A stretch of DNA of 64,000 bases, from NCBI RefSeq assembly GCF_009914755.1, contig NC_060938.1, one strand, 5' to 3'. The translations under genes were made by a program, and so were the position numbers. This stretch comes from the human T2T-CHM13v2.0 reference genome, Homo sapiens. The number at the start of each line of letters is the position of its first letter. Position 1 is the stretch's first letter. The notes under the pieces were generated by a model. The model ran no database searches, had not been told where the DNA came from, and was given only the letters and a program-made list of their open reading frames with translations. Positions 3,993 through 55,105 of this stretch are shown one piece after another.

Positions 3993-4003
3993 TGATTGGA
4001 TTA
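3993..4003 (-). promoter_or_regulatory. DUX4-type double-homeodomain motif (TAATCCAATCA on the minus strand)
   Basis: TGATTGGATTA is a perfect match to TAAYYYAATCA, with an adjacent TAATTA. Also present at 10273, 16561, 22841, 29121, 35401, 41681, 47960, 54239 and 60518. Confidence 0.6.
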
Positions 4004-4169
4004 TCTGGAGCCACACCTTGATATTCCTAACCCGAGCACCCTCATCCAACGAATGCTCCACCCAACTGGCTCCCAAGTCTCTACGTGGTTCCAGAGCAAA
4101 AGGATGTTGATACAACGCATATCTCCACCTTTTCTTCAAAGTCTTTACGCTTACACGGAAAGACTTCTT

Positions 4170-4235
4170 CAACTGCCATGCATCAGGGTCAGGGGGAGGT
4201 CTTGTTACAACACAGATCTGCGGATCTCCGGGGTT
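4170..4235. mobile_element. Possible short MER5-like DNA transposon remnant
   Basis: 'tgcatcagggtcagggggaggtcttgttacaacacagat' resembles MER5A 'tgcatcagaatcacctggagggcttgttaaaacacagat'; short and diverged. Confidence 0.35.
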
Positions 4236-4383: not shown

Positions 4384-4489
4384 ATGAAATCAAAGCAGGA
4401 GAACAGTTTCCTTACGAGGTGTAGCCTGGGAAAGTTGGGGGTGACTGATGGAAAGGAGGAGTGAAGCTCCACCCTTTCCGCTGCTAGGC

Positions 4490-4625
4490 TGCGGCCGAGG
4501 CAATTTAAACCCACCCTGGCTGGCCTGTACTCAGATCTTCGCGGAGCGGATCAGCGGCCGGAGCGTTTGGCGGACTCTGCGTGGACTTGGAGCTCACAGA
4601 GTCTTGCGACTTGGAAGCGGATTCA
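4490..4625 (+). promoter_or_regulatory. Candidate Pol II core promoter: TATA-like ATTTAAA (4503-4509), Inr TCAGATC (4531-4537), CpG-rich leader
   Basis: The TATA-like box lies 30 bp upstream of the A in a YYANWYY Inr match. A local CpG cluster is present, and there is no ATG between 4533 and the ORF ATG at 4861. Recurs in every unit. Confidence 0.55.
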
Positions 4626-4658
4626 GAGGACAGGACAGAACACTTGGACAAGTGAATC

Positions 4659-4688
<30 letters not shown>
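4659..4688 (+). repeat. (TCTG)n microsatellite, every unit
   Basis: tctgtctgtctg... read directly. Confidence 0.95.
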
Positions 4689-4689
<1 letters not shown>

Positions 4690-4737
4690 CATTGGTTGGT
4701 TGATTTCCATTTTCTTAAGGGGCACATACCTCACACC

Positions 4738-4799
4738 GCACACACACAAACACACACACGCACACACACACACACACACGCACACACACGCACACACAC
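4738..4799 (+). repeat. Interrupted (CA)n microsatellite, every unit
   Basis: cacacacaaacacacacacgcacac... read directly. Confidence 0.95.
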
Positions 4800-4860
4800 T
4801 CCTTCCTTCTGCGAGTTAGAACATTAGTAGGGGCCCCTGGGAGCTGCAGGTTTCCTAAAC

Positions 4861-7842
4861 ATGTCTGCACCTAAGAACAGTAGGGTCTTGTCTGGCTCTT
4901 CTTATGAACGGTCCCCCAGCCCGGACTCCCCAAGGTCCATGCGAGCCTCACCCAGCTTCTCCCTCTCCCCTCTCAGAAACTCAGGCTTAAGGGGAAGCTC
5001 CTCACCAGGGATCGGGAGCTACCATTCACCATCCCCTAGGGCTTCACCACACTCACCTCTGTCATCACCAGAATCCCACAAGCTCCCATTTCCCTGTCCT
5101 CACCGTGATGGGCAATCAATAAAGCCATTGGGCTCTCCCGTGTCCTCCTCTGAGGAATCCTCAGAGTCCCCACGTTCATCAATAATATACCACATGTTCT
5201 TACTGCCATCACCCAGCAGCTCACCCCCAGCTCTCGGGGGGTCTCCTGTGTCTCCCAGCTACTCTCCAAACAACCCCAGATTTCAGCTGCGGTCAGCCCC
5301 CCACACCAAGGAATCACCTACAAACTCACGAGCCTCACGCTGCTCCACCCCTGTGTCTTTCATCTCTTCACCCCCAGGCCTCAGGGACCCTCCTGTGGCT
5401 CCCAGTTACTCTCCAGCCATCCCCAGGTTCCTGCGGGAGTCAGCCCCATACACCCAGGAGTCCCCCAGAGACTCACAGGTCTTGGGAGATTATGAGCGGT
5501 CCCTCAGCCCTGACTCCTCAAGATTCATGCCTGCCTCACCCAGCTTCTCCCTCTCCCCTCCCAGAAACTCAGACCCAAGGGGCAGCTCCTCACCAGGGAT
5601 GTGGAAGTCCTCTACATCATCCCGCAGGGCTTCACCACTCTCACATCCGTCATCAACAGAATTCCACAACTTTACGTTTCCCTTTCCTAACCAAGCAGGA
5701 CAGTCACTCATGTCATTGTGTTCTCCCGTGACCTCCTCTGGAGATTCTTCACAGTCACCTCATTCATCAATAATATACCATATGTTCTTACTGCCATCAT
5801 CCAGCAGCTCACCCCCAGCCACCCATGACTCTCCTGTCTGTCCCAGCTACTCTCCAACTACGCCCAGATTTCAGCGGGAGTCTCTACCCCACACCCCAGA
5901 AACACCTACAAACTCACAGACCTCAGTGAGATCCTCGCCAGTCTCTCTCACGTCTTCACCCCCAGCCCTTACGGACCCTCCAGTCTGTCCCAGCTACTCT
6001 CCAACCACGCCCACATTTCAGCGCGGGTCAGTTCCAGGAACCCAGGGATCACCACCAAGCCCACCGCTTTCACTGAGTTACTCCCCAGTCTCTAGCACGT
6101 CTTTATCTCCAACCCTCAGGGACTCGCCTGTCTGTCCCAGCTACTCTCCAAACACGCCCACACTTCAGCGGCAGTCCGTTGCAGGCACCCAGAAGTCACC
6201 ACCAAACTCACCAATTTCACTGCGTTACTCCCCAGTCTCTCTCATGTCTTCACCATCCCTCAGGGACTCTCCCGTCTGTCCCAGCTACTCTCCAACCACG
6301 CCCACATTTCAGCTGGAGTCAGTTCCAGGCACCCCGGAATCACCACCAAACTCACCAATTTCACTCAGTTACTCCTCAGTCTCTACCACGTCTTTATCTC
6401 CAACCCTCAGGGACTCTCCTGTGTGTCCCAGCTACTCTCCAACCATGCCCACACTTCAGCGGGAGTCAGTTCCAGGCACCCAGGAATCACCACCAAACTC
6501 ACCAATTTCACTCAATTACTCTCCAGTCTCTCTCGTGTCTTCACCAGCCCTCAGGGACTCTCCTGTCTGTCCCAGCTACTCTACAACCACGCCCACATTT
6601 CAGCTGGAGTCAGTTCCAGGCACCCCGGAGTCACCACCAAACTCACCAGTTTCACTCAGTTACTCCCCGGTCTCTCTCATGTCATCACCCCCAGCCCTCA
6701 GGGACTCTCCTGTGTGTCCCAGCTACTCTCCAACCATGCCCAGATTCCAGCGGGAGTCAGTTCCAGGCACCCATGTATCACCACCAAACTCAGCAGTTTC
6801 ACTGAGTTACTCCCCAGTCTCTCTCATGTCTTCACCCCCAGACCCCTGGGACTCTCCTGTCTGTCCCAGCTACTCTCCCACCACGCCCAGATTTCAGCGG
6901 GAGTCAGCCTCCCACACTCCGGAATCAGATACAGACTCACAGACTTCACTGAACTCCTCCCTGGTCTCTCTCAGGTCTTTGCCCTCATCCCACAGGGACT
7001 CTTGTGTCTCTTTCAGCTACTCTCAAAACTTCTCTAGATTCCAGCTGGAGTCAGTTCCAGGCACCCACGATACACCACCGAACTCACGAATTTCACTGAC
7101 TTACGCCCCAGTCTCCCTCATGTTCTCACCCCCAGCCCTCAGGGACTCTTCTGTCTCTCTCAGCTACTCTCCAACCATCTCCAGATTTCACCTGGAGTCA
7201 GCTTCCCACACCCTGGAATCACCTGCAAACTCACGGACCTTACTGCAACCATCCCCCATTTCTTTCACCTCTTCACCCCCTGCCTTCAGGGACTCTCCTG
7301 GGTCTCCCAGCTTCTCTCCAGCCTTCCCCAGATTTCTGCCACAGTCAGCCCCAGGCACCCAGGACAACCCTAGACACTCACAGGCCTCACCAGACTATCT
7401 CCCTATGACCTGTACCTATACAGGGATGGCTCCCACGCATCCCTCAGTGACCCCAAACCCATCTCCACTTACACTCAGGCACTCCCAGGGCCTGACAGCT
7501 ACTCCCCGTTATTGTCCTTCAGTTCGAAGCCCTGGCCAATCTACTAGCCCACATGACGCAGTTACCTGGCCATTTCTCCACGGTTCCCGGGAGGGCCCCA
7601 CACCCAGCCGCACAAGAGCCCCTCCTGCATTCCGTCCTCACACGCAGGCCTGTCCATCTACTTGCTACTGTCACACTCTTGCCAGCAGAAGAGGCCCCTG
7701 TAATGGCCGATATCACCACCCAGTCTATCCTCACCCCACAGCTGTGCAGCGGGAACCCCCTGCTGGCCCACGTGGCTGCCACAGCCCATGCTGGCACGAC
7801 GCTCCAGCAGGTCGGCGTCCCTGCGGGCCAAACTACCGGTGA
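4861..7842 (+). CDS. 993-aa Ser/Pro/Thr-rich protein built of Pol II CTD-like heptads (49-aa repeats), with a Cys/His-rich C-terminus; intact
   Basis: 2982-bp uninterrupted ORF; ATG has A at -3; monomer length differences preserve frame (147 or 144 bp). Confidence 0.7.
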   Translation: MSAPKNSRVLSGSSYERSPSPDSPRSMRASPSFSLSPLRNSGLRGSSSPGIGSYHSPSPRASPHSPLSSPESHKLPFPCPHRDGQSIKPLGSPVSSSEESSESPRSSIIYHMFLLPSPSSSPPALGGSPVSPSYSPNNPRFQLRSAPHTKESPTNSRASRCSTPVSFISSPPGLRDPPVAPSYSPAIPRFLRESAPYTQESPRDSQVLGDYERSLSPDSSRFMPASPSFSLSPPRNSDPRGSSSPGMWKSSTSSRRASPLSHPSSTEFHNFTFPFPNQAGQSLMSLCSPVTSSGDSSQSPHSSIIYHMFLLPSSSSSPPATHDSPVCPSYSPTTPRFQRESLPHTPETPTNSQTSVRSSPVSLTSSPPALTDPPVCPSYSPTTPTFQRGSVPGTQGSPPSPPLSLSYSPVSSTSLSPTLRDSPVCPSYSPNTPTLQRQSVAGTQKSPPNSPISLRYSPVSLMSSPSLRDSPVCPSYSPTTPTFQLESVPGTPESPPNSPISLSYSSVSTTSLSPTLRDSPVCPSYSPTMPTLQRESVPGTQESPPNSPISLNYSPVSLVSSPALRDSPVCPSYSTTTPTFQLESVPGTPESPPNSPVSLSYSPVSLMSSPPALRDSPVCPSYSPTMPRFQRESVPGTHVSPPNSAVSLSYSPVSLMSSPPDPWDSPVCPSYSPTTPRFQRESASHTPESDTDSQTSLNSSLVSLRSLPSSHRDSCVSFSYSQNFSRFQLESVPGTHDTPPNSRISLTYAPVSLMFSPPALRDSSVSLSYSPTISRFHLESASHTLESPANSRTLLQPSPISFTSSPPAFRDSPGSPSFSPAFPRFLPQSAPGTQDNPRHSQASPDYLPMTCTYTGMAPTHPSVTPNPSPLTLRHSQGLTATPRYCPSVRSPGQSTSPHDAVTWPFLHGSREGPTPSRTRAPPAFRPHTQACPSTCYCHTLASRRGPCNGRYHHPVYPHPTAVQREPPAGPRGCHSPCWHDAPAGRRPCGPNYR
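5237..7435 (+). repeat. ACRO1: 147-bp ACRO1-like monomers within the ORF: 2 monomers (5237, 5384) plus 11 tandem monomers (5825-~7435); same layout in every unit
   Basis: Landmark positions 5825, 5972, 6119, 6263, 6410, 6554, 6701, 6848, 6995, 7142, 7289 give spacings of 147, 147, 144, 147, 144, 147, 147, 147, 147, 147. Confidence 0.85.
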
Positions 7843-10800
7843 CATGTCTAGCGTGACCCTCCTTCCTGGCAGTGACACTGTTGATGTGAACCCCAATTTC
7901 ACATCTGTCATTTGTAAATAGGACCATTTTCCCTTTTCGCTCTCCCTTCCATTCACAGGGCTTTTCATTCTCTCTGTTACTGCCTCCGTTTCAGATATTT
8001 ACTCACCTTTTTCTCTCTCACTATGTCTGCCGTGGGCTCCATGAGAGTGCGCCACATAAGATTCCCCCATTAAAAGTCATGAATTGAGTGGCTTTTAGTA
8101 TACCTGTGGTTGTGCACATTCAAATTTAATTCGCAATTCATTGTAGAACGTCTTATCACTCCCGGCCAGAGAAAAACCCTGTAGACATTAGTCACTCCTC
8201 ATTCTGTCTCAAACCCTCTCCCTCACCCGCAGCCCTAGGTAGCAACTACCTAGTGCGATCAATCCCATATGCATAGATTACCATATTGTGGACATTTCCT
8301 ATAAGCGGAATTGCACAATAGGGGAGCTGTTATGACTGACATAACACGTAACACAATATTTTCAAGATTCGTCCACATTGTAGGCTTACCCACAGGGGGA
8401 AACCATTTTTTTGGGGGCTTTTAGTAACACCGGTGTTTTCTCCTTCGTTACGTCCTTCTTTCCTTCCTTCCTTCCTTCCTTCCTTCCTGACTTCCTTCTT
8501 TCCTTCCCTCCTTCCTCCTATTTCTCTCTTACTCCTTCTGCCCTCTCTCTTTCCTATGCCTTAGGTGCATCCCACATTCTGCGTTTTTTTGGGGAAATCC
8601 TCGACAGGTGCAGGAAAATTGTGTTATTGTAACTATTTACCGTTATCTCTCTTTCACGGCTCTCCATCAGTTGTGAACATCTATTGGTTTATCCCAAGTC
8701 TCTAAGCATATTTTCATTAGGTAAACCTGTTTTTCCTTATACAGCTGTTTCTGGAGTATAGGGTCGCATACTCATAAACCCAGTGTAACTCAGAAACGCA
8801 TCTAATATTCCAGTAAACCCATCATAACGTTGAAAAATCGTAAATCAAACCATCATAAGTCACGGTTTGTCCGTGGATATGGGCCTCATCAATTCCATTG
8901 TATTCAGTAATGCTGTACACCATTAACAATGGCAGACTGATTGGGAGTGGATATTGATAGCATTATAAAAGTCAGTTATTAGAGGGATACTTCTTTAACC
9001 TGACTGAAGAACTGATCTAATGGCTTTAGTACAGTGCATGATTATGTGCGATGTTTTGAGACAGAGTAGTACATTTGTGAATGAAATTTTATGGCTTTTT
9101 TTTTCACTTAGTAGGAACCATTGTGTGTGGAAAAGTGAGAAAATGGCTTTCTGCTGTAGGGTCTGGCATTCATTGTAGATGTAAGCTTATTTTTCTGTGA
9201 GCAAATCTTATTCAATAAAATACTACTCTTTATACTAAAAAACAAAAACAGTGGTGATGTGTGGTCATTATCCTCAGCAAACTTATCCAGGGAAAGAAAA
9301 CCAAACGCCACAACTCACTTATAATGGGAGCTGAAAAATGAGATCCCATGGACACAGGAAGGGGAACAACACACACTGGGGCCTTCCGGGAGACAGAGCG
9401 TTAAGAAAAACAGCTACTGCATGCTGGGATTAATACCTAGGTGATGGGTTGACAGGTGCAGCAAACCACCATGGCACACGTTTACCTTAGTAACAAATCT
9501 GCACATCATGCACATATACCCCAGAACTTAGGAACGAAACGAAACAAAAGACAACGAAAAAGCAACAGCAAAACGCTAAAGGCAAAATAAAGTTTCAAAC
9601 TGAGAAAGTGACAGACCAACGTCTGGTTCAAATCATGGTTCTCAACCCAGGTGCCATAAGGTCAGGATAAAGGATGTGATTACATATTGTCAATAAGACA
9701 TGCAGCAAATGACCAGAATGATTATTCTCAACATATGAGTGTCTTCTAATTCAATGGCGACGCTATCTACCGGGACATAGCATTAGATTCCAAAGGGCCG
9801 AGTCCCGCCAGACAGGCCTCCCACACTAATAACAATGGGAAGCCCTACGTTGCTTTACCTGTGCTTCTCAGCCACTGGCTATAAATCAGGTTGCCACCAC
9901 TCCCAGATTTAGTTGCATTCATTTGCTGGAAGAGCTCACAGCACGCAGGGAAACACATTTGCCGTTGTATTTTAGCGGACATTGCACAAAGTTCAGAAAT
10001 AAATGTGGGGCCCGGCATGTGGGGAGGGGCGCACTACCTTCCAGGAAGTGCTATCCAGAAGCTCTCTGAACCCAGTCCTTTTGGGTTTTGATGGAGACCT
10101 CATTCTATAGGCATGATGGGTTAAACCATAGGCTATTGGTGATCAACTCCACCTGGGGCTCTCCACCCTCCCTGGAAATTGGGGTTGAGGCTTTGCCATC
10201 CTCAGTCTGACTAAAAGAATTTACCCAAACGGAATTTTAAAACCGATGAGCATAACTGGAATCTTAATTAGATGATTGGATTATCTGGAGCCACACCTTG
10301 ATATTCCTAACCCGAGCACCCTCATCCAACGAATGCTCCACCCAACTGGCTCCCAAGTCTCTACGTGGTTCCAGAGCAAAAGGATGTTGATACAACGCAT
10401 ATCTCCACCTTTTCTTCAAAGTCTTTACGCTTACACGGAAAGACTTCTTCAACTGCCATGCATCAGGGTCAGGGGGAGGTCTTGTTACAACACAGATCTG
10501 CGGATCTCCGGGGTTTGACTGTGGCAAGGATGCTGCTGGTGTCAAAACCACAACGTGGGAACCACAGAACCACTAGTGGGTTTTCAGTGTTTCAGTGCAT
10601 ACAATTCCTAATATATCTGGCTAAGAAAACTTGTAAGTTCTTAGATTGTCCCAAAGGTGGCGCATGAAATCAAAGCAGGAGAACAGTTTCCTTACGAGGT
10701 GTAGCCTGGGAAAGTTGGGGGTGACTGATGGAAAGGAGGAGTGAAGCTCCACCCTTTCCGCTGCTAGGCTGCGGCCGAGGCAATTTAAACCCACCCTGGC

Positions 10801-10938
10801 TGGCCTGTACTCAGATCTTCGCGGAGCGGATCAGCGGCCGGAGCGTTTGGCGGACTCTGCGTGGACTTGGAGCTCACAGAGTCTTGCGACTTGGAAGCGG
10901 ATTCAGAGGACAGGACAGAACACTTGGACAAGTGAATC

Positions 10939-10969
<31 letters not shown>

Positions 10970-11140
10970 CATTGGTTGGTTGATTTCCATTTTCTTAAGG
11001 GGCACATACCTCACACCGCACACACACAAACACACACACGCACACACACACACACACACGCACACACACGCACACACACTCCTTCCTTCTGCGAGTTAGA
11101 ACATTAGTAGGGGCCCCTGGGAGCTGCAGGTTTCCTAAAC

Positions 11141-14122
11141 ATGTCTGCACCTAAGAACAGTAGGGTCTTGTCTGGCTCTTCTTATGAACGGTCCCCCAGC
11201 CCGGACTCCCCAAGGTCCATGCGAGCCTCACCCAGCTTCTCCCTCTCCCCTCTCAGAAACTCAGGCTTAAGGGGAAGCTCCTCACCAGGGATCGGGAGCT
11301 ACCATTCACCATCCCCTAGGGCTTCACCACACTCACCTCTGTCATCACCAGAATCCCACAAGCTCCCATTTCCCTGTCCTCACCGTGATGGGCAATCAAT
11401 AAAGCCATTGGGCTCTCCCGTGTCCTCCTCTGAGGAATCCTCAGAGTCCCCACGTTCATCAATAATATACCACATGTTCTTACTGCCATCACCCAGCAGC
11501 TCACCCCCAGCTCTCGGGGGGTCTCCTGTGTCTCCCAGCTACTCTCCAAACAACCCCAGATTTCAGCTGCGGTCAGCCCCCCACACCAAGGAATCACCTA
11601 CAAACTCACGAGCCTCACTTTTCTCCACCCCTGTGTCTTTCATCTCTTCACCCCCAGGCCTCAGGGACCCTCCTGTGGCTCCCAGTTACTCTCCAGCCAT
11701 CCCCAGGTTCCTGCGCGAGTCAGCCCCATACACCCAGGAGTCCCCCAGAGACTCACAGGTCTTGGGAGATTATGAGCGGTCCCTCAGCCCTGACTCCTCA
11801 AGATTCATGCCTGCCTCACCCAGCTTCTCCCTCTCCCCTCCCAGAAACTCAGACCCAAGGGGCAGCTCCTCACCAGGGATGTGGAAGTTCTCTACGTCAT
11901 CCCGCAGGGCTTCACCACTCTCACATCCGTCATCAACAGAATTCCACAACTTTACGTTTCCCTTTCCTAACCAAGCAGGACAGTCACTCATGTCATTGTG
12001 TTCTCCCGTGACCTCCTCTGGAGATTCTTCACAGTCACCTCATTCATCAATAATATACCATATGTTCTTACTGCCATCATCCAGCAGCTCACCCCCTGCC
12101 ACCCATGACTCTCCTGTCTGTCCCAGCTACTCTCCAACTACGCCCAGATTTCAGCGGGAGTCTGTACCCCACACCCCAGAAACACCTACAAACTCACAGA
12201 CCTCAGTGAGATCCTCGCCAGTCTCTCTCACGTCTTCACCCCCAGCCCTTACGGACCCTCCAGTCTGTCCCAGCTACTCTCCAACCACGCCCACATTTCA
12301 GCGCGGGTCAGTTCCAGGAACCCAGGGATCACCACCAAGCCCACCGCTTTCACTGAGTTACTCCCCAGTCTCTAGCACGTCTTTATCTCCAACCCTCAGG
12401 GACTCGCCTGTCTGTCCCAGCTACTCTCCAAACACGCCCACACTTCAGCGGCAGTCCGTTGCAGGCACCCAGAAGTCACCACCAAACTCACCAATTTCAC
12501 TGCGTTACTCCCCAGTCTCTCTCATGTCTTCACCATCCCTCAGGGACTCTCCCGTCTGTCCCAGCTACTCTCCAACCACGCCCACATTTCAGCTGGAGTC
12601 AGTTCCAGGCACCCCGGAATCACCACCAAACTCACCAATTTCACTCAGTTACTCCCCAGTCTCTAGCACGTCTTTATCTCTAACCCTCAGGGACTCTCCT
12701 GTGTGTCCCAGCTACTCTCCAACCACGCCCACACTTCAGCGGGAGTCAGTTCCAGGCACCCAGGAATCACCACCAAACTCACCAATTTCACTCAATTACT
12801 CTCCAGTCTCTCTCGTGTCTTCACCAGCCCTCAGGGACTCTCCTGTCTGTCCCAGCTACTCTACAACCACGCCCACATTTCAGCTGGAGTCAGTTCGAGG
12901 CACCCCGGAGTCACCACCAAACTCACCAGTTTCACTCACTTACTCCTCGGTCTCTCTCATGTCTTCACCCCCAGCCCTCAGGGACTCTCCTGTGCGTCCC
13001 AGCTACTCTCCAACCATGCCCAGATTCCAGCGGGAGTCAGTTCCAGGCACCCATGTATCACCACCAAACTCAGCAGTTTCACTGAGTTACTCCCCAGTCT
13101 CTCTCATGTCTTCACCCCCAGACCCCTGGGACTCTCCTGTCTGTCCCAGCTACTCTCCCACCACGCCCAGATTTCAGCGGCAGTCAGCCTCCCACACTCC
13201 GGAATCAGATACAGACTCACAGACTTCACTGAACTCCTCCCTGGTCTCTCTCAGGTCTTTGCCCTCATCCCACAGGGACTCTTGTGTCTCTTTCAGCTAC
13301 TCTCAAAACTTCTCTAGATTCCAGCTGGAGTCAGTTCCAGGCACCCACGATACACCACCGAACTCACGAATTTCACTGACTTACGCCCCAGTCTCCCTCA
13401 TGTTCTCACCCCCAGCCCTCAGGGACTCTTCTGTCTCTCTCAGCTACTCTCCAACCATCTCCAGATTTCACCTGGAGTCAGCTTCCCACACCCTGGAATC
13501 ACCTGCAAACTCACGGACCTTACTGCAACCATCCCCCATTTCTTTCACCTCTTCACCCCCTGCCTTCAGGGACTCTCCTGGGTCTCCCAGCTTCTCTCCA
13601 GCCTTCCCCAGATTTCTGCCACAGTCAGCCCCAGGCACCCAGGACAACCCTAGACACTCACAGGCCTCACCAGACTATCTCCCTATGACCTGTACCTATA
13701 CAGGGATGGCTCCCACGCATCCCTCAGTGACCCCAAACCCATCTCCACTTACACTCAGGCACTCCCAGGGCCTGACAGCTACTCCCCGTTATTGTCCTTC
13801 AGTTCGAAGCCCTGGCCAATCTACTAGCCCACATGACGCAGTTACCTGGCCATTTCTCCACGGTTCCCGGGAGGGCCCCACACCCAGCCGCACAAGAGCC
13901 CCTCCTGCATTCCGTCCTCACACGCAGGCCTGTCCATCTACTTGCTACTGTCACACTCTTGCCAGCAGAAGAGGCCCCTGTAATGGCCGATATCACCACC
14001 CAGTCTATCCTCACCCCACAGCTGTGCAGCGGGAACCCCCTGCTGGCCCACGTGGCTGCCACAGCCCATGCTGGCACGACGCTCCAGCAGGTCGGCGTCC
14101 CTGCGGGCCAAACTACCGGTGA
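11141..14122 (+). CDS. 993-aa CTD-heptad-like repeat protein, intact copy
   Basis: Full ORF with several substitutions relative to the 4861 copy (e.g. RC160-161LF). Confidence 0.7.
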   Translation: MSAPKNSRVLSGSSYERSPSPDSPRSMRASPSFSLSPLRNSGLRGSSSPGIGSYHSPSPRASPHSPLSSPESHKLPFPCPHRDGQSIKPLGSPVSSSEESSESPRSSIIYHMFLLPSPSSSPPALGGSPVSPSYSPNNPRFQLRSAPHTKESPTNSRASLFSTPVSFISSPPGLRDPPVAPSYSPAIPRFLRESAPYTQESPRDSQVLGDYERSLSPDSSRFMPASPSFSLSPPRNSDPRGSSSPGMWKFSTSSRRASPLSHPSSTEFHNFTFPFPNQAGQSLMSLCSPVTSSGDSSQSPHSSIIYHMFLLPSSSSSPPATHDSPVCPSYSPTTPRFQRESVPHTPETPTNSQTSVRSSPVSLTSSPPALTDPPVCPSYSPTTPTFQRGSVPGTQGSPPSPPLSLSYSPVSSTSLSPTLRDSPVCPSYSPNTPTLQRQSVAGTQKSPPNSPISLRYSPVSLMSSPSLRDSPVCPSYSPTTPTFQLESVPGTPESPPNSPISLSYSPVSSTSLSLTLRDSPVCPSYSPTTPTLQRESVPGTQESPPNSPISLNYSPVSLVSSPALRDSPVCPSYSTTTPTFQLESVRGTPESPPNSPVSLTYSSVSLMSSPPALRDSPVRPSYSPTMPRFQRESVPGTHVSPPNSAVSLSYSPVSLMSSPPDPWDSPVCPSYSPTTPRFQRQSASHTPESDTDSQTSLNSSLVSLRSLPSSHRDSCVSFSYSQNFSRFQLESVPGTHDTPPNSRISLTYAPVSLMFSPPALRDSSVSLSYSPTISRFHLESASHTLESPANSRTLLQPSPISFTSSPPAFRDSPGSPSFSPAFPRFLPQSAPGTQDNPRHSQASPDYLPMTCTYTGMAPTHPSVTPNPSPLTLRHSQGLTATPRYCPSVRSPGQSTSPHDAVTWPFLHGSREGPTPSRTRAPPAFRPHTQACPSTCYCHTLASRRGPCNGRYHHPVYPHPTAVQREPPAGPRGCHSPCWHDAPAGRRPCGPNYR

Positions 14123-17257: not shown

Positions 17258-17428
17258 CATTGGTTGGTTGATTTCCATTTTCTTAAGGGGCACATACCTC
17301 ACACCGCACACACACAAACACACACACGCACACACACACACACACACGCACACACACGCACACACACTCCTTCCTTCTGCGAGTTAGAACGTTAGTAGGG
17401 GCCCCTGGGAGCTGCAGGTTTCCTAAAC

Positions 17429-20410
17429 ATGTCTGCACCTAAGAACAGTAGGGTCTTGTCTGGCTCTTCTTATGAACGGTCCCCCAGCCCGGACTCCCCA
17501 AGGTCCATGCGAGCCTCACCCAGCTTCTCCCTCTCCCCTCTCAGAAACTCAGGCTTAAGGGGAAGCTCCTCACCAGGGATCGGGAGCTACCATTCACCAT
17601 CCCCTAGGGCTTCACCACACTCACCTCTGTCATCACCAGAATCCCACAAGCTCCCATTTCCCTGTCCTCACCGTGATGGGCAATCAATAAAGCCATTGGG
17701 CTCTCCCGTGTCCTCCTCTGAGGAATCCTAAGAGTCCCCACGTTCATCAATAATATACCACATGTTCTTACTGCCATCACCCAGCAGCTCACCCCCAGCT
17801 CTCGGGGGGTCTCCTGTGTCTCCCAGCTACTCTCCAAACAACCCCAGATTTCAGCTGCGGTCAGCCCCCCACACCAAGGAATCACCTACAAACTCACGAG
17901 CCTCACTTTTCTCCACCCCTGTGTCTTTCATCTCTTCACCCCCAGGCCTCAGGGACCCTCCTGTGGCTCCCAGTTACTCTCCAGCCATCCCCAGGTTCCT
18001 GCGCGAGTCAGCCCCATACACCCAGGAGTCCCCCAGAGACTCACAGGTCTTGGGAGATTATGAGCGGTCCCTCAGCCCTGACTCCTCAAGATTCATGCCT
18101 GCCTCACCCAGCTTCTCCCTCTCCCCTCCCAGAAACTCAGACCCAAGGGGCAGCTCCTCACCAGGGATGTGGAAGTCCTCTACATCATCCCGCAGGGCTT
18201 CACCACTCTCACATCCGTCATCAACAGAATTCCACAACTTTACGTTTCCCTTTCCTAACCAAGCAGGACAGTCACTCATGTCATTGTGTTCTCCCGTGAC
18301 CTCCTCTGGAGATTCTTCACAGTCACCTCATTCATCAATAATATACCATATGTTCTTACTGCCATCATCCAGCAGCTCACCCCCAGCCACCCATGACTCT
18401 CCTGTCTGTCCCAGCTACTCTCCAACTACGCCCAGATTTCAGCGGGAGTCTCTACCCCACACCCCAGAAACACCTACAAACTCACAGACCTCAGTGAGAT
18501 CCTCGCCAGTCTCTCTCACGTCTTCACCCCCAGCCCTTACGGACCCTCCAGTCTGTCCCAGCTACTCTCCAACCACGCCCACATTTCAGCGCGGGTCAGT
18601 TCCAGGAACCCAGGGATCACCACCAAGCCCACCGCTTTCACTGAGTTACTCCCCAGTCTCTAGCACGTCTTTATCTCCAACCCTCAGGGACTCGCCTGTC
18701 TGTCCCAGCTACTCTCCAAACACGCCCACACTTCAGCGGCAGTCCGTTGCAGGCACCCAGAAGTCACCACCAAACTCACCAATTTCACTGCGTTACTCCC
18801 CAGTCTCTCTCATGTCTTCACCATCCCTCAGGGACTCTCCCGTCTGTCCCAGCTACTCTCCAACCACGCCCACATTTCAGCTGGAGTCAGTTCCAGGCAC
18901 CCCGGAATCACCACCAAACTCACCAATTTCACTCAGTTACTCCTCAGTCTCTACCACGTCTTTATCTCCAACCCTCAGGGACTCTCCTGTGTGTCCCAGC
19001 TACTCTCCAACCATGCCCACACTTCAGCGGGAGTCAGTTCCAGGCACCCAGGAATCACCACCAAACTCACCAATTTCACTCAATTACTCTCCAGTCTCTC
19101 TCGTGTCTTCACCAGCCCTCAGGGACTCTCCTGTCTGTCCCAGCTACTCTACAACCACGCCCACATTTCAGCTGGAGTCAGTTCCAGGCACCCCGGAGTC
19201 ACCACCAAACTCACCAGTTTCACTCAGTTACTCCCCGGTCTCTCTCATGTCATCACCCCCAGCCCTCAGGGACTCTCCTGTGTGTCCCAGCTACTCTCCA
19301 ACCATGCCCAGATTCCAGCGGGAGTCAGTTCCAGGCACCCATGTATCACCACCAAACTCAGCAGTTTCACTGAGTTACTCCCCAGTCTCTCTCATGTCTT
19401 CACCCCCAGACCCCTGGGACTCTCCTGTCTGTCCCAGCTACTCTCCCACCACGCCCAGATTTCAGCGGGAGTCAGCCTCCCACACTCCGGAATCAGATAC
19501 AGACTCACAGACTTCACTGAACTCCTCCCTGGTCTCTCTCAGGTCTTTGCCCTCATCCCACAGGGACTCTTGTGTCTCTTTCAGCTACTCTCAAAACTTC
19601 TCTAGATTCCAGCTGGAGTCAGTTCCAGGCACCCACGATACACCACCGAACTCACGAATTTCACTGACTTACGCCCCAGTCTCCCTCATGTTCTCACCCC
19701 CAGCCCTCAGGGACTCTTCTGTCTCTCTCAGCTACTCTCCAACCATCTCCAGATTTCACCTGGAGTCAGCTTCCCACACCCTGGAATCACCTGCAAACTC
19801 ACGGACCTTACTGCAACCATCCCCCATTTCTTTCACCTCTTCACCCCCTGCCTTCAGGGACTCTCCTGGGTCTCCCAGCTTCTCTCCAGCCTTCCCCAGA
19901 TTTCTGCCACAGTCAGCCCCAGGCACCCAGGACAACCCTAGACACTCACAGGCCTCACCAGACTATCTCCCTATGACCTGTACCTATACAGGGATGGCTC
20001 CCACGCATCCCTCAGTGACCCCAAACCCATCTCCACTTACACTCAGGCACTCCCAGGGCCTGACAGCTACTCCCCGTTATTGTCCTTCAGTTCGAAGCCC
20101 TGGCCAATCTACTAGCCCACATGACGCAGTTACCTGGCCATTTCTCCACGGTTCCCGGGAGGGCCCCACACCCAGCCGCACAAGAGCCCCTCCTGCATTC
20201 CGTCCTCACACGCAGGCCTGTCCATCTACTTGCTACTGTCACACTCTTGCCAGCAGAAGAGGCCCCTGTAATGGCCGATATCACCACCCAGTCTATCCTC
20301 ACCCCACAGCTGTGCAGCGGGAACCCCCTGCTGGCCCACGTGGCTGCCACAGCCCATGCTGGCACGACGCTCCAGCAGGTCGGCGTCCCTGCGGGCCAAA
20401 CTACCGGTGA
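17429..20410 (+). pseudogene. Copy with nonsense mutation S101* (TAA 17729-17731); 882-aa ORF remains from the ATG at 17762
   Basis: TCA>TAA relative to the other units; the rest of the frame is intact. Confidence 0.65.
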
Positions 20411-23537: not shown

Positions 23538-23708
23538 CATTGGTTGGTTGATTTCCATTTTCTTAAGGGGCACATACCTCACACCGCACACACACAAACA
23601 CACACACGCACACACACACACACACACGCACACACACGCACACACACTCCTTCCTTCTGCGAGTTAGAACGTTAGTAGGGGCCCCTGGGAGCTGCAGGTT
23701 TCCTAAAC

Positions 23709-29817: not shown

Positions 29818-29988
29818 CATTGGTTGGTTGATTTCCATTTTCTTAAGGGGCACATACCTCACACCGCACACACACAAACACACACACGCACACACACACA
29901 CACACACGCACACACACGCACACACACTCCTTCCTTCTGCGAGTTAGAACATTAGTAGGGGCCCCTGGGAGCTGCAGGTTTCCTAAAC

Positions 29989-36097: not shown

Positions 36098-36268
36098 CAT
36101 TGGTTGGTTGATTTCCATTTTCTTAAGGGGCACATACCTCACACCGCACACACACAAACACACACACGCACACACACACACACACACGCACACACACGCA
36201 CACACACTCCTTCCTTCTGCGAGTTAGAACATTAGTAGGGGCCCCTGGGAGCTGCAGGTTTCCTAAAC

Positions 36269-39250
36269 ATGTCTGCACCTAAGAACAGTAGGGTCTTGTC
36301 TGGCTCTTCTTATGAACGGTCCCCCAGCCCGGACTCCCCAAGGTCCATGCGAGCCTCACCCAGCTTCTCCCTCTCCCCTCTCAGAAACTCAGGCTTAAGG
36401 GGAAGCTCCTCACCAGGGATCGGGAGCTACCATTCACCATCCCCTAGGGCTTCACCACACTCACCTCTGTCATCACCAGAATCCCACAAGCTCCCATTTC
36501 CCTGTCCTCACCGTGATGGGCAATCAATAAAGCCATTGGGCTCTCCCGTGTCCTCCTCTGAGGAATCCTCAGAGTCCCCACGTTCATCAATAATATACCA
36601 CATGTTCTTACTGCCATCACCCAGCAGCTCACCCCCAGCTCTCGGGGGGTCTCCTGTGTCTCCCAGCTACTCTCCAAACAACCCCAGATTTCAGCTGCGG
36701 TCAGCCCCCCACACCAAGGAATCACCTACAAACTCACGAGCCTCACTTTTCTCCACCCCTGTGTCTTTCATCTCTTCACCCCCAGGCCTCAGGGACCCTC
36801 CTGTGGCTCCCAGTTACTCTCCAGCCATCCCCAGGTTCCTGCGCGAGTCAGCCCCATACACCCAGGAGTCCCCCAGAGACTCACAGGTCTTGGGAGATTA
36901 TGAGCGGTCCCTCAGCCCTGACTCCTCAAGATTCATGCCTGCCTCACCCAGCTTCTCCCTCTCCCCTCCCAGAAACTCAGACCCAAGGGGCAGCTCCTCA
37001 CCAGGGATGTGGAAGTCCTCTACGTCATCCCGCAGGGCTTCACCACTCTCACATCCGTCATCAACAGAATTCCACAACTTTACGTTTCCCTTTCCTAACC
37101 AAGCAGGACAGTCACTCATGTCATTGTGTTCTCCCGTGACCTCCTCTGGAGATTCTTCACAGTCACCTCATTCATCAATAATATACCATATGTTCTTACT
37201 GCCATCATCCAGCAGCTCACCCCCAGCCACCCATGACTCTCCTGTCTGTCCCAGCTACTCTCCAACTACGCCCAGATTTCAGCGGGAGTCTCTACCCCAC
37301 ACCCCAGAAACACCTACAAACTCACAGACCTCAGTGAGATCCTTGCCAGTCTCTCTCACGTCTTCACCCCCAGCCCTTACGGACCCTCCAGTCTGTCCCA
37401 GCTACTCTCCAACCACGCCCACATTTCAGCGCGGGTCAGTTCCAGGAACCCAGGGATCACCACCAAGCCCACCGCTTTCACTGAGTTACTCCCCAGTCTC
37501 TAGCACGTCTTTATCTCCAACCCTCAGGGACTCGCCTGTCTGTCCCAGCTACTCTCCAAACACGCCCACACTTCAGCGGCAGTCCGTTGCAGGCACCCAG
37601 AAGTCACCACCAAACTCACCAATTTCACTGCGTTACTCCCCAGTCTCTCTCATGTCTTCACCATCCCTCAGGGACTCTCCCGTCTGTCCCAGCTACTCTC
37701 CAACCACGCCCACATTTCAGCTGGAGTCAGTTCCAGGCACCCCGGAATCACCACCAAACTCACCAATTTCACTCAGTTACTCCTCAGTCTCTACCACGTC
37801 TTTATCTCCAACCCTAAGGGACTCTCCTGTGTGTCCCAGCTACTCTCCAACCATGCCCACACTTCAGCTGGAGTGAGTTCCAGGCACCCAGGAATCACCA
37901 CCAAACTCACCAATTTCACTCAATTACTCTCCAGTCTCTCTCGTGTCTTCACCAGCCCTCAGGGACTCTCCTGTCTGTCCCAGCTACTCTACAACCACGC
38001 CCACATTTCAGCTGGAGTCAGTTCGAGGCATCCCGGAGTCACCACCAAACTCACCAGTTTCACTCAGTTACTCCCCGGTCTCTCTCATGTCATCACCCCC
38101 AGCCCTCAGGGACTCTCCTGTGTGTCCCAGCTACTCTCCAACCATGCCCAGATTCCAGCGGGAGTCAGTTCCAGGCACCCATGTATCACCACCAAACTCA
38201 GCAGTTTCACTGAGTTACTCCCCAGTCTCTCTCATGTCTTCACCCCCAGACCCCTGGGACTCTCCTGTCTGTCCCAGCTACTCTCCCACCACGCCCAGAT
38301 TTCAGCGGGAGTCAGCCTCCCACACTCCGGAATCAGATACAGACTCACAGACTTCACTGAACTCCTCCCTGGTCTCTCTCAGGTCTTTGCCCTCATCCCA
38401 CAGGGACTCTTGTGTCTCTTTCAGCTACTCTCAAAACTTCTCTAGATTCCAGCTGGAGTCAGTTCCAGGCACCCACGATACACCACCGAACTCACGAATT
38501 TCACTGACTTACGCCCCAGTCTCCCTCATGTTCTCACCCCCAGCCCTCAGGGACTCTTCTGTCTCTCTCAGCTACTCTCCAACCATCTCCAGATTTCACC
38601 TGGAGTCAGCTTCCCACACCCTGGAATCACCTGCAAACTCACGGACCTTACTGCAACCATCCCCCATTTCTTTCACCTCTTCACCCCCTGCCTTCAGGGA
38701 CTCTCCTGGGTCTCCCAGCTTCTCTCCAGCCTTCCCCAGATTTCTGCCACAGTCAGCCCCAGGCACCCAGGACAACCCTAGACACTCACAGGCCTCACCA
38801 GACTATCTCCCTATGACCTGTACCTATACAGGGATGGCTCCCACGCATCCCTCAGTGACCCCAAACCCATCTCCACTTACACTCAGGCACTCCCAGGGCC
38901 TGACAGCTACTCCCCGTTATTGTCCTTCAGTTCGAAGCCCTGGCCAATCTACTAGCCCACATGACGCAGTTACCTGGCCATTTCTCCACGGTTCCCGGGA
39001 GGGCCCCACACCCAGCCGCACAAGAGCCCCTCCTGCATTCCGTCCTCACACGCAGGCCTGTCCATCTACTTGCTACTGTCACACTCTTGCCAGCAGAAGA
39101 GGCCCCTGTAATGGCCGATATCACCACCCAGTCTATCCTCACCCCACAGCTGTGCAGCGGGAACCCCCTGCTGGCCCACGTGGCTGCCACAGCCCATGCT
39201 GGCACGACGCTCCAGCAGGTCGGCGTCCCTGCGGGCCAAACTACCGGTGA
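36269..39250 (+). pseudogene. Copy with nonsense mutation S536* (TGA 37874-37876); truncated 535-aa product
   Basis: TCA>TGA relative to the other units, with additional private substitutions nearby. Confidence 0.7.
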
Positions 39251-42376: not shown

Positions 42377-42547
42377 CATTGGTTGGTTGATTTCCATTTT
42401 CTTAAGGGGCACATACCTCACACCGCACACACACAAACACACACACGCACACACACACACACACACGCACACACACGCACACACACTCCTTCCTTCTGCG
42501 AGTTAGATCATTAGTAGGGGCCCCTGGGAGCTGCAGGTTTCCTAAAC

Positions 42548-48655: not shown

Positions 48656-48826
48656 CATTGGTTGGTTGATTTCCATTTTCTTAAGGGGCACATACCTCAC
48701 ACCGCACACACACAAACACACACACGCACACACACACACACACACGCACACACACGCACACACACTCCTTCCTTCTGCGAGTTAGATCATTAGTAGGGGC
48801 CCCTGGGAGCTGCAGGTTTCCTAAAC

Positions 48827-54934: not shown

Positions 54935-55105
54935 CATTGGTTGGTTGATTTCCATTTTCTTAAGGGGCACATACCTCACACCGCACACACACAAACACAC
55001 ACACGCACACACACACACACACACGCACACACACGCACACACACTCCTTCCTTCTGCGAGTTAGATCATTAGTAGGGGCCCCTGGGAGCTGCAGGTTTCC
55101 TAAAC

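What the first reader, a model, noticed from the sequence alone, without database searches (positions are those of the whole stretch)
5825..7435. The 147-bp monomer is 7 x 21 bp: seven degenerate RNA Pol II CTD heptads (possible CTD mimic)
Seen: the 49-aa repeat parses exactly into heptads YSPTTPT / FQLESVP / GTPESPP / NSPISLS / YSPVSLM / SSPPALR / DSPVCPS. Six of seven keep S/T2-P3, two keep Y1, five keep S/T5 and three keep P6. Eleven tandem monomers give ~77 heptad positions. Known: the POLR2A CTD is (Y1S2P3T4S5P6S7)x52, is phosphorylated by CDK7/9/12/13, is bound by PIN1, CID-domain proteins and CTD phosphatases, and partitions into condensates. Inference: the product would be a free, disordered CTD-like polymer with no catalytic domain. 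It could act as a decoy or scaffold for CTD kinases and readers, or seed transcriptional condensates. The satellite may descend from a CTD-coding sequence, or be convergent.
Basis: partly seen in the sequence, partly recalled or inferred. Interest (0 to 1): 0.9.

Follow-up and report, generated by a model that had tools for sequence, protein, structure and literature searches.

The report
ACRO1 satellite's CTD-like open frame
This is the known human ACRO1 satellite, whose 147-base unit reads as seven worn copies of the RNA polymerase II tail motif; that likeness was published in 2020, and whether the long open frame around it makes a protein is still untested.

Summary
The 147-bp monomer is 7 x 21 bp: lags 21/42/63 give z 6.8, with 0 of 5000 shuffles as high. 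In one frame it reads as degenerate heptads, 22/49 identical to (YSPTSPS)7, with 0 of 100000 shuffles as high.

It is not new. The array is the ACRO1 satellite inside the 6.28-kb ACRO/ACRE composite of acrocentric short arms. Boots et al. 2020 (PMC7714431) already reported the CTD-like translation (23/49) and its heptad nature. They also showed that sense ACRO1 RNA binds Pol II and blocks elongation in cis.

What I add is that the array sits inside a 993-codon ATG frame (4861-7842). The frame is intact in 7 of 9 complete units. It has 0 stops, against 14 and 16 in the other + frames. A marmoset database protein runs collinear with it from the same ATG (66% identity over 593 aa; about 12 stops expected if neutral, none seen). 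More distant relatives share a C-terminal Cys/His motif.

Amino-acid sequence itself shows no frame-specific constraint (dN/dS 0.73-0.88, like shifted frames). A 2025 preprint already calls this a "putative protein coding gene".

CTD mimicry is untested: there are 0 exact YSPTSPS heptads and no Pfam match.

The parts
4831..11110 (+). One complete 6280-bp unit of the ACRO/ACRE composite. The window holds 9 complete units and 2 partial ones.
   Evidence: A 40-nt anchor recurs at 4831, 11111, 17399, 23679, 29959, 36239, 42518, 48797, 55076 and 61354, spaced 6278-6288 bp apart. Units are 99.57-100% identical.
4861..7842 (+). ATG-initiated open frame of 993 codons plus stop (stop-to-stop 4831-7842, 1003 codons). 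The conceptual product is 105.8 kDa, pI 9.1, S 23.3%, P 18.2%, T 7.3%, with 97 [ST]P sites.
   Evidence: There are 0 internal stops, against 14 and 16 in the other + frames and 95/44/47 on the minus strand. Pfam finds 0 families.
5809..7364 (+). Main ACRO1 array: 147-bp monomers, each 7 x 21 bp. In-frame monomers start at 5848, 5995, 6142, 6286, 6433, 6577, 6724, 6871, 7018, 7165 and 7312.
   Evidence: TRF, monomer parse, blastn of the consensus, periodicity.
5221..5476 (+). Mini-array of about 1.7 diverged ACRO1 monomers (256 bp), in the same frame.
   Evidence: blastn of the consensus gives 76-78% identity. Its size matches the '256 bp long arrays' of PMC7714431.
4903..5256 (+). Segment A: non-satellite part of the frame, an ancient paralogue of segment B, with 21-nt periodicity.
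   Evidence: A vs B is 285/354 nt identical with no gaps. Lag-21 z is 4.6.
5491..5844 (+). Segment B: paralogue of A, immediately before the main array.
   Evidence: Lag-21 z is 4.5. Both A and B are present in the marmoset protein P0002.
7648..7722 (+). Codons for the C-terminal motif ACPSTCYCHTLASRRGPCNGRYHHP, the best conserved block of the frame among relatives.
   Evidence: Alignment of 7 C-termini gives the consensus aCPStcYcHtlA.Rr...NG.
3993..4003 (-). TAATCCAATCA, a match to the DUX4 site consensus as I recall it (TAAYBBAATCA). It occurs once per unit, about 860 bp upstream of the ATG.
   Evidence: 10 matches in the window, one per unit, against 0.36 expected per 64 kb. Because the units are copies, this counts as one event.
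4401..4700 (.). The only run of consecutive 200-bp windows upstream of the ATG with GC > 0.5 and CpG o/e > 0.6. It is followed by (TCTG)n at 4659-4689 and (CA)n at 4739-4799. It may be a promoter or leader; that is inference only.
   Evidence: Only one ATG (at 4448) lies in 4401-4860.
17399..20410 (+). Copy of the frame with a premature stop (TCA>TAA at codon 111 of the stop-to-stop frame).
36239..39250 (+). Copy of the frame with a premature stop (TCA>TGA at codon 546).
11111..14122 (+). Intact copy of the 1003-codon frame. Further intact copies lie at 23679-26690, 29959-32970, 42518-45529, 48797-51808 and 55076-58087. Partial copies at 3-1562 and 61354-63999 are open over the part present.

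Best explanation
**What it is.** The array is the known ACRO1 satellite inside the ~6.28-kb ACRO (ACRE) composite macrosatellite of the distal short arm of an acrocentric chromosome. Its 147-bp monomer grew from a 21-bp unit. On the C-rich strand it therefore reads as seven degenerate heptads of the type xSPxS(P/L)x, which resemble the Pol II CTD heptad.

**The frame around it.** The array is not free-standing. It is the expanded middle of a single-exon frame of 993 codons that begins at a conserved ATG and ends after a conserved Cys/His-rich tail. I infer that this frame is, or recently was, a fast-evolving multi-copy coding sequence. It seems to be kept open while its amino-acid sequence drifts almost freely. 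The product would be a ~106-kDa S/P-rich protein, probably disordered.

**From the literature, not shown here.**
- ACRO1 is transcribed under DUX4, and in cleavage-stage embryos.
- The sense RNA binds Pol II and curbs its own elongation in cis.

**Not demonstrated.** That the product mimics the CTD is not shown.
For: **Identity as ACRO1/ACRE.**
- 147-bp arrays of 1.55 kb and 256 bp sit in 6278-6288-bp units. This matches PMC7714431 (sections read) and PMC12767296 (passages).
- The heptad likeness is 22/49 here, against 23/49 in print.

**Openness of the frame.**
- It has 0 stops in 1003 codons, against 14 and 16 in the other + frames. Yet its mutational target for stops is larger: 4.18% of single-nt changes, against 2.9% and 3.1%.
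- In a Markov-2 simulation, 1 of 2000 runs reaches 1003 open codons.

**Conservation across species.**
- Marmoset protein P0002 (nr/UniRef, 832 aa) starts at the same MSA.KN. It is 394/593 identical with 5 gap positions.
- 194 replacements imply about 11.7 stop-creating changes if neutral; none are seen.
- 0 of 400 neutral simulations stay stop-free.
- Among the young units the ratio is 2 stop: 18 missense: 6 synonymous, i.e. the neutral input. The contrast with the marmoset comparison gives Fisher p = 0.008.
- Segments A and B are 19.5% diverged with no indel.
- Distant relatives P0115, P0118, P0110 and P0007 share the N-terminal blocks, one or more ~49-aa units and the C-terminal motif.
- Lag-7 and lag-49 periodicity is also present in those relatives.

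**Other.**
- No folded domain is recognised: Pfam finds 0 families, and the C-terminal tail has 0 PDB matches.
- Literature: expression peaks at the 4-cell stage (PMC6545021). DUX4 induction is reported as cited in PMC11467316, PMC8990217 and bioRxiv 2025.12.22.696056. PMC12746033 speaks of a 'putative protein coding gene'.
Against: **No constraint on the amino-acid sequence.**
- Diversity by codon position among monomers is 0.232/0.264/0.279.
- dN/dS is 0.76-0.88 in frame, against 0.71-1.07 in shifted frames. For A vs B it is 0.73, against 1.52 and 0.70.
- Between units, codon positions vary 6/14/7.

**Broken or shifted copies.**
- 2 of 9 complete units carry stops.
- The Old World monkey models P0019 and P0021 share the ATG but shift frame after about 250 aa. 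P0004 and P0003 also shift frame.
- P0002 itself has a ~60-aa stretch in another frame.

**Limits of the cross-species evidence.**
- I saw no DNA or gene model for any relative. An open copy may have been picked from many, and the species of P0115, P0118 and P0135 are unknown.

**No direct evidence of a product.**
- RefSeq annotates no gene here (hub note).
- No stable ACRO1 transcript was found in HeLa, and 1.1-1.4 kb of ACRO1 nearly abolishes a reporter RNA (PMC7714431). That would hinder a full-length mRNA.
- No peptide or ribosome data were found in my searches.
Confidence: 0.55

Rival explanations
1. This is a purely non-coding satellite. The open frame is a by-product of a pyrimidine-rich 21-bp ancestor, recent amplification, and picking the longest ORFs out of databases. 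Any function lies in the RNA, as a Pol II-binding aptamer that silences its own transcription, or in chromatin of the nucleolar short arms.
For: - The only experiments in print are at the RNA level: SELEX gave 1029 sense mappings against 1 antisense, and elongation is blocked in cis (PMC7714431).
- Substitution patterns look neutral in every frame.
- Stops are present in 2 of 9 units.
- All three + frames are stop-poor, with ORFs of 313 and 242 aa.
- Many frame-shifted copies exist in other records.
- RefSeq annotates no gene (hub note).
Against: - Frame 0 has 0 stops against 14 and 16, although its stop target is larger.
- 1 of 2000 composition-matched simulations reaches this length.
- The same ATG and a collinear frame persist in marmoset through 194 replacements.
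- The C-terminal motif is conserved in relatives that are only 35-46% identical.
- A and B have no indels.
- The monomer RNA shows no unusual fold: z is -0.31 and 0.30, and the consensus structure is -5.7 kcal/mol with no covariation support.
Confidence: 0.33
2. One reading: the frame is translated, and the product works as a free CTD mimic. It would be a decoy, substrate or scaffold for CTD kinases, phosphatases, PIN1 and CID proteins, or a seed for transcriptional condensates.
For: - The heptad phase and the likeness to YSPTSPS are far beyond shuffles.
- All 12 distinct PDB sequences matched are RPB1 CTDs, aligned in register over about 200-370 residues, best E 3.1e-4.
- The ORF has 97 [ST]P sites, 15 YSP and 4 YSPT[ST]P.
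- NCBI's pipeline named monkey models 'RPB1' or 'RPB1-like'.
- The frame looks maintained.
- RNA appears when the embryonic genome is activated.
Against: - There are 0 exact consensus heptads. Y1 is kept in only 19 of 77 slots and S/T2-P3 in 36 of 77.
- Pfam gives no CTD-repeat match at E<=10.
- The PDB hits carry a bias of 98.5 bits and score about 22 bits.
- No RPB1-length protein is among the 86 proteins at E<=1e-3 in the 1.8-billion library.
- The sequence drifts freely, which fits poorly with many specific readers.
- One relative, P0135, expanded a 20-aa unit instead.
- No expression or binding data exist.
Confidence: 0.08
3. ACRO1 descends from the CTD-coding part of POLR2A (mRNA or gene), as Boots et al. 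speculated. The likeness would be homology, not convergence.
For: - The likeness is 22-23 of 49 residues, in heptad register.
- RPB1 is the only PDB match.
Against: - The likeness reduces to one ancestral 21-mer, whose consensus reads YSPVSLR: 4 of 7 positions, made of the commonest codons of a C/T-rich repeat.
- No Rpb1 domain is seen in the frame or in the 26 other ORFs scanned, and the PDB alignments cover the CTD only.
- Relatives with a single ~49-aa unit have their own N- and C-terminal blocks, unrelated to RPB1.
- The heptad period also runs through segments A and B.
Confidence: 0.05

Closest known systems
ACRO1 satellite / ACRE (ACRO composite) as described by Boots et al. 2020 (PMC7714431) and in PMC12767296
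   Same: - 147-bp unit.
- Arrays of about 1.5 kb and 256 bp within a ~6-kb tandem unit.
- Position on the distal short arm of an acrocentric chromosome.
- In-silico translation about 45-50% identical to CTD heptads.
- C/A-rich sense strand.
   Different: Nothing differs in kind; this window is a member. Not in the passages I read: the 993-codon ATG frame spanning both arrays, its deficit of stops, the collinear marmoset frame, and the conserved C-terminal motif. PMC12746033 mentions a 'putative protein coding gene' in one sentence. I could not see its supplementary figure.
C-terminal domain of RPB1 (POLR2A), tandem YSPTSPS heptads
   Same: - Period of 7 residues.
- S-P at positions 2-3 and S/T at position 5 in many repeats.
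- One near-canonical heptad (YSPTTP[TR]) per 49 aa.
- Very high S/P/T content.
- Probably disordered.
   Different: - No exact consensus heptad.
- A 49-aa super-period.
- Y1 in only 19 of 77 slots.
- Not attached to a polymerase.
- No Pfam match.
- Own N- and C-terminal blocks.
- Sequence drifts at a near-neutral rate, whereas the CTD is highly conserved (that last point is recalled knowledge).
Macrosatellites that carry an ORF in every unit, such as D4Z4 with DUX4 (recalled, not tested here)
   Same: - A kilobase-scale tandem unit with one intronless frame per unit.
- Location on or near acrocentric short arms.
- Cleavage-stage expression.
- Copy-number change between generations (ACRO1: PMC12746033).
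   Different: - No recognisable domain.
- The frame contains its own internal satellite.
- No transcript model, poly(A) site or protein has been shown.
Pol II-binding RNA aptamers (RAPs) of Boots et al. 2020
   Same: The same sequence and, by inference from its C/A richness, the same strand as the open frame.
   Different: This is an RNA-level mechanism that needs no translation. I found no stable or covarying fold in the monomer, in line with the paper's statement that RAPs share no single structural motif.

Membership tests
ACRO1 satellite / ACRO (ACRE) composite | Tandem 147-bp monomers | tested here: met
   TRF gives period 147, 10.6 copies and 79% matches at 5809-7364, and the same in every unit.
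ACRO1 satellite / ACRO (ACRE) composite | Arrays of 1.3-2.4 kb and 256 bp inside a ~6-kb tandem higher-order unit (PMC7714431) | tested here: met
   The main array is 1556 bp, the mini-array at 5221-5476 is 256 bp, and units are 6278-6288 bp.
ACRO1 satellite / ACRO (ACRE) composite | Match to the Repbase/Dfam ACRO1 consensus, with flanking L1PA10, MER21B and L1MB8 pieces (PMC12767296) | not testable with these tools
   No repeat library is on hand. Pfam on the 26 of 40 other ORFs that are >=54 aa gave nothing above cut-off.
ACRO1 satellite / ACRO (ACRE) composite | Location on the short arm of an acrocentric chromosome | not testable with these tools
   The hub note places the window at chr14:62001-126000 of T2T-CHM13. 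No genome is held for it.
RPB1 CTD | Tandem heptads of consensus YSPTSPS | tested here: not met
   There are 0 exact heptads in 993 aa. Identity is 209/539 over 77 slots. The heptad period itself is real.
RPB1 CTD | Recognised by the curated CTD-repeat profile of Pfam (its presence in the library is recalled) | tested here: not met
   0 families at E<=10 for the 1003-aa frame.
RPB1 CTD | Significant sequence similarity to RPB1 | tested here: inconclusive
   In PDB, 12 of 12 distinct sequences matched are RPB1, best E 3.1e-4, but with 98.5 bits of bias. None of RPB1 length is among the 86 hits at E<=1e-3 in the 1.8-billion library.
RPB1 CTD | Joined to the polymerase body | tested here: not met
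   No Rpb1 domain is seen in the frame or in 26 neighbouring ORFs.
RPB1 CTD | Phosphorylated by CDK7/9/12/13 and bound by CTD readers | not testable with these tools
   This needs bench work.
Protein-coding gene | Frame open beyond chance and in most copies | tested here: met
   Stops are 0 against 14 and 16. 1 of 2000 simulations reaches this length. 7 of 9 complete units are intact.
Protein-coding gene | Frame conserved between species | tested here: met
   The marmoset protein P0002 shares the ATG and is 394/593 identical with no stop, against about 11.7 expected. Relatives were seen as database proteins only, never as DNA.
Protein-coding gene | Purifying selection on amino acids (dN/dS below that of shifted frames; third positions most variable) | tested here: not met
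Protein-coding gene | Sense mRNA, ribosome occupancy, peptides | not testable with these tools
   The literature gives RNA abundance only. I saw no strand or translation data.
Pol II-binding RNA aptamer (RAP) | Binding to Pol II and block of elongation in cis, strand-specific | not testable with these tools
   Shown for ACRO1 in PMC7714431. That the + strand here is the active one is inferred from its C 40.6% / A 21.2% composition.

The most novel reading that the evidence does not exclude
The ACRO arrays on the acrocentric short arms are a large family of intronless genes. Each unit would encode a ~106-kDa heptad-repeat, S/P-rich protein that has been kept open since before the split from New World monkeys. 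It would be switched on by DUX4 at the 4-8-cell stage. The protein would act through its CTD-like heptads, as a bulk substrate or decoy for proline-directed and CTD kinases, or as a condensate scaffold. It would do so when the embryonic genome and the nucleoli are first activated, while its own mRNA throttles Pol II in cis.
Probability: 0.1. Interest if true: 0.85.

Novelty: already known. Interest (0 to 1): 0.35.

Why it matters

What stays open is whether ACRO, the repeat class most specific to acrocentric short arms after rDNA (PMC12767296), is also a gene family. If the frame is translated in cleavage-stage embryos, there would be many unannotated copies of a primate-specific protein with Pol II-tail-like repeats. 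They would sit next to the nucleolar organisers, and RefSeq misses them in this window.

The stop-codon deficit and the cross-species collinearity reported here make that question worth testing with T2T-mapped ribosome profiling and proteomics.

Tried and rejected
**Searches that found nothing.**
- Pfam on the frame: 0 families at E<=10.
- Pfam on the 26 of 40 other ORFs of the unit that are >=54 aa: nothing above cut-off. The weak rows were SCIMP 0.0019, Yae1_N 0.0043 and Homeodomain 0.037.
- Pfam on relatives: only IGFL, in P0095.
- Rfam at gathering thresholds on one unit and a half: 0 matches.
- PDB with the C-terminal 138 aa: 0 matches. PDB with P0135: 0 matches.
- Homology search with P0115 for a gene name: only P0007, P0006 and P0019 came back, with no name other than NCBI's 'RPB1-like'.

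**RNA structure.**
- z-scores are -0.31 and 0.30 (sense) and 0.08 and 0.64 (antisense).
- The consensus fold of 10 monomers is -5.74 kcal/mol, with a covariation term of +0.68.
- So nothing supports a structured RNA.

**A DUX-like origin.**
- The C-terminal tail of P0135 has no tblastn match in the human unit.
- I therefore dropped the idea that ACRE carries a DUX-like tail.

**Tools or sources that were unavailable.**
- Whole-genome search: none is held.
- Hendrickson 2017: not held, so DUX4 induction is cited second-hand.
- Nucleotide comparison with the POLR2A CTD exons: not run, because no such sequence can be fetched with these tools.

**Other.**
- One search failed on a script error and was repeated.
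- Many database hits are noisy-assembly mosaics that switch frame every 20-40 aa, or human contamination in other records. I did not use them as evidence.


Full report
**What is there**

The window is a tandem array of a ~6.28-kb unit. A 40-nt anchor recurs ten times, 6278-6288 bp apart. The nine complete units are 99.57-100% identical.

Each unit holds a 147-bp tandem array. In the unit of the finding, it lies at 5809-7364, with 10.6 copies, 79% matches and 1% indels. Each unit also holds a 256-bp mini-array of the same monomer (5221-5476) and three microsatellites: (TCCT)n, (TCTG)n and (CA)n. The hub note places the window at chr14:62-126 kb of T2T-CHM13.

**The observation**

The 21-nt sub-period is real.
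- In the array, identity at lag 21 is 0.415, and every multiple of 21 is among the eight best lags.
- On the consensus monomer, lags 21, 63 and 42 are the three best of 73. Their mean is 0.422, against 0.281 (sd 0.021) in dinucleotide shuffles. That is z 6.8, with 0 of 5000 shuffles as high.
- 8 of 5000 shuffles reach the lag-21 value at any lag.

In the frame that starts at 5809 there is no stop; the other two + frames have 6 and 4.

The consensus reads YSPTTPR FQRESVP GTQESPP NSPISLS YSPVSLT SSPPALR DSPVCPS.
- It is 22/49 identical to seven YSPTSPS in the best phase, and 1-12 in the other six phases.
- Residue shuffles give 12.6 (sd 1.4, max 21), with 0 of 100000 as high.

It is not verbatim in the ORF, and the best real monomer matches 47/49. 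Over the 77 real slots, S/T2-P3 is kept in 36, Y1 in 19, S/T5 in 56 and P6 in 31. The consensus of the seven 21-mers translates as YSPVSLR. So the likeness to the CTD comes down to one ancestral heptad of the type YSPxS(P/L)x.

**It is already in print**

*Boots et al. 2020 (PMC7714431).* I read the abstract, sections 7, 12 and 24, and further passages.
- They describe ACRO1 as a 147-bp unit in arrays of 1.3-2.4 kb and 256 bp, within 6-kb 'ACRE' units.
- They speculate that it derives from CTD mRNA.
- By genomic SELEX, ACRO1 sense RNA binds Pol II (1029 sense mappings against 1 antisense).
- 1.1-1.4 kb of ACRO1 almost abolishes a reporter RNA co-transcriptionally, while the reverse complement does not.
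- They found no stable ACRO1 transcript in HeLa.

*Other papers (passages only).*
- PMC12767296 calls ACRO a 6-kb composite of ACRO1, L1PA10, MER21B and L1MB8. More than 90% of it lies on acrocentrics, and it is typical of the distal short arm.
- ACRO1 RNA peaks at the 4-cell stage (PMC6545021).
- ACRO1 is hypomethylated in spermatogonial stem cells and sperm (PMC5832720).
- ACRO1 RNA is induced by DUX4. This is cited from Hendrickson 2017 in PMC11467316, PMC8990217 and bioRxiv 2025.12.22.696056. The original paper is not held.
[quoted passage not shown] 2020)', and reports copy-number changes between generations. I could not see its supplementary figure.

*Searches.* Searches for ACRO1 with CTD, with 'open reading frame', with DUX4 and with composite/T2T-CHM13, and for 'RPB1-like' with acrocentric, gave nothing on translation of the frame.

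**The frame around the array**

The array is the middle of a stop-to-stop frame of 1003 codons, 4831-7842. From the ATG at 4861 (context AAACATGT) it is 993 codons. The conceptual product is 105.8 kDa, pI 9.1, S 23.3%, P 18.2% and T 7.3%. It has 97 [ST]P sites, 15 YSP, 4 YSPT[ST]P and no exact YSPTSPS.

Seven of the nine complete units keep the frame. One has TCA>TAA at codon 111 and one has TCA>TGA at codon 546. The two partial units at the window ends are open as far as they go.

Frame 0 has no stop, against 14 and 16 in the other + frames and 95/44/47 on the minus strand. Yet 4.18% of its possible single-base changes create a stop, against 2.9% and 3.1% in the other + frames. One of 2000 second-order Markov sequences of the same composition reaches 1003 open codons.

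The 21-nt period also runs through the non-satellite parts of the frame: segment A z 4.6, segment B z 4.5, mini-array z 3.5. It is weak after the array (z 1.8) and absent from the rest of the unit (z 1.2).

**Is the frame constrained? The evidence points both ways.**

*Against constraint on the residues.*
- Diversity among monomers is 0.232/0.264/0.279 at codon positions 1/2/3.
- dN/dS is 0.76-0.88 in frame, against 0.71-1.07 in shifted frames.
- The old paralogues A and B give 0.73, against 1.52 and 0.70 in shifted frames.
- Among the units, 27 variable columns fall 6/14/7 by codon position. They make 6 synonymous, 18 missense and 2 stop changes. The expected fractions are 0.266 synonymous and 0.042 stop.

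*For constraint on openness.*
- One homology search returned a marmoset nr/UniRef protein, P0002 (832 aa), that a source names 'RPB1'.
- It begins MSASKN where the human frame begins MSAPKN. It is 394/593 identical, with 5 gap positions, through A, the mini-array, B and the first monomers. It aligns again over the C-terminal tail.
- At the neutral ratio of 0.060 stop-creating changes per missense change, 194 replacements predict 11.7 stops; none is seen.
- 0 of 400 neutral simulations, run down to 66% identity, stay stop-free under either mutation model.
- The contrast with the young units (2 stops: 18 missense, against 0: 194) gives a one-sided Fisher p of 0.008.
- A and B differ at 69 of 354 bases with no indel. 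From the indel-to-substitution ratio I recall for primate DNA (about 1:8 to 1:10), several would be expected.

*More distant relatives.* These were found without a word index: 86 proteins at E<=1e-3, 64 at E<=1e-10 and 37 at E<=1e-30.
- P0115 (355 aa) matches the human frame at 4807-5403 (42%) and 7273-7839 (46%), in the same frame. It has a single ACRO1-like unit.
- P0118 (575 aa, 39% identity) has several ~49-aa units.
- P0007 (361 aa, 82% identity) is a short complete form.
- All share the block aCPStcYcHtlA.Rr...NG near the C-terminus.
- Lag-7 and lag-49 periodicity recurs in them.

*Caveats.*
- I saw these relatives only as database proteins, without DNA, gene models or, for most of them, species.
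- An open copy may be one picked from many.
- P0002 has a ~60-aa stretch in another frame.
- The Piliocolobus and Papio models (P0019, P0021, named 'RPB1-like') share the ATG but shift frame after about 250 aa.
- P0003 and P0004 also shift frame.
- Many other hits are noisy-assembly mosaics, or human contamination in other organisms' records.

**CTD likeness as homology**
- Pfam finds no family in the frame at E<=10.
- phmmer against PDB sequences finds 12 distinct sequences, all of them RPB1. They align in register over the CTD only. The best E is 3.1e-4 at 22 bits, with 98.5 bits of bias.
- In the 1.8-billion-protein library, every one of the 86 hits is 71-607 aa long, far shorter than RPB1.
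- No Rpb1 domain turns up in the 26 other ORFs scanned.
- The relatives have their own N- and C-terminal blocks.
- I therefore read the likeness as most probably convergent: a pyrimidine-rich 21-mer that happens to read YSPxS(P/L)x.
- The nucleotide test against POLR2A could not be run.

**Mechanism**

*Shown here.*
- The anatomy of the unit and the frame.
- The heptad period.
- The open frame and its deficit of stops.
- The lack of residue-level constraint.

*Shown in print.*
- Pol II binding, and the block of elongation in cis by the sense RNA.
- RNA in cleavage-stage embryos.
- DUX4 induction (second-hand).

*Inferred.*
- The + strand here is the aptamer strand (C 40.6%, A 21.2%).
- The frame is or was translated.
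- The product is disordered. No prediction could be run.

A DUX4-type motif, as I recall the consensus, occurs once per unit about 860 bp upstream of the ATG. That is 10 matches against 0.36 expected per 64 kb, but it counts as a single event because the units are copies. A small CpG-enriched stretch at 4401-4700, with only one ATG in 4401-4860, would suit a promoter and leader.

The monomer RNA shows no unusual or covarying fold, and Rfam finds nothing.

**Verdict**

The new element is evidence that the frame has been kept open across primates while its sequence drifts. That fits a fast-evolving multi-copy gene better than a chance ORF. It rests on database proteins whose DNA I could not inspect.

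Noticed in passing
window 10276-10515 (+), equivalent to 3996-4235 in the focal unit: An 80-aa ORF gives a weak Pfam Homeodomain match: E 0.037, 14.3 bits against a cut-off of 22.9, over helix-3 positions 35-54 (…VSTWFQSKRM…). It starts right at the DUX4-like motif, on the same strand as the long frame. It may well be chance.
   Followed up: partly
protein P0135 (from; unnamed source): This 598-aa relative shares the N-terminal blocks of the ACRO frame, but it expanded a 20-aa unit instead. It ends in an acidic tail (…LLDELL…LEAPLSEEEFQALLDML…) that I recall as like the C-terminal activation domain of DUX4/DUXC. The tail has no tblastn match in the human unit and no Pfam or PDB match. The DUX likeness is recalled, not tested.
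   Followed up: partly
protein P0095 (from; source metaclust): A 381-aa model joins an IGFL domain (Pfam PF14653, E 2.6e-37) to three ACRO-frame-like units (…VYHIFFLPSPS…RDSPVSPSYSPTIPTF…). Boots et al. list chromosome 19 among dispersed ACRO1 sites. A link to the IGFL cluster there is my guess.
   Followed up: no
proteins P0009 and P0016: Records labelled Plasmodium ovale wallikeri ('hypothetical protein'/'PIR Superfamily Protein', and 'RPB1, partial') are 97% and 90% identical to the human ACRO frame on contigs of 1-2 kb. They look like human contamination turned into spurious proteins, as PMC6581058 describes for bacteria.
   Followed up: no
window, all units (variable columns): The nine complete units fall into sub-families: those at 42518, 48797 and 55076 share many variants against the rest. 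The ACRO1 part of the unit is the most variable: 20 of the 27 variable columns within the frame lie in 5809-7425. The unit at 11111 has an 8-bp insertion in (TCCT)n.
   Followed up: partly
window 5809-7364 and its copies: TRF also scores periods of 291 and 438 bp (82% and 79% matches), so the monomers form a two- to three-monomer higher order. The two 144-bp monomers carry the same 3-bp deletion.
   Followed up: no
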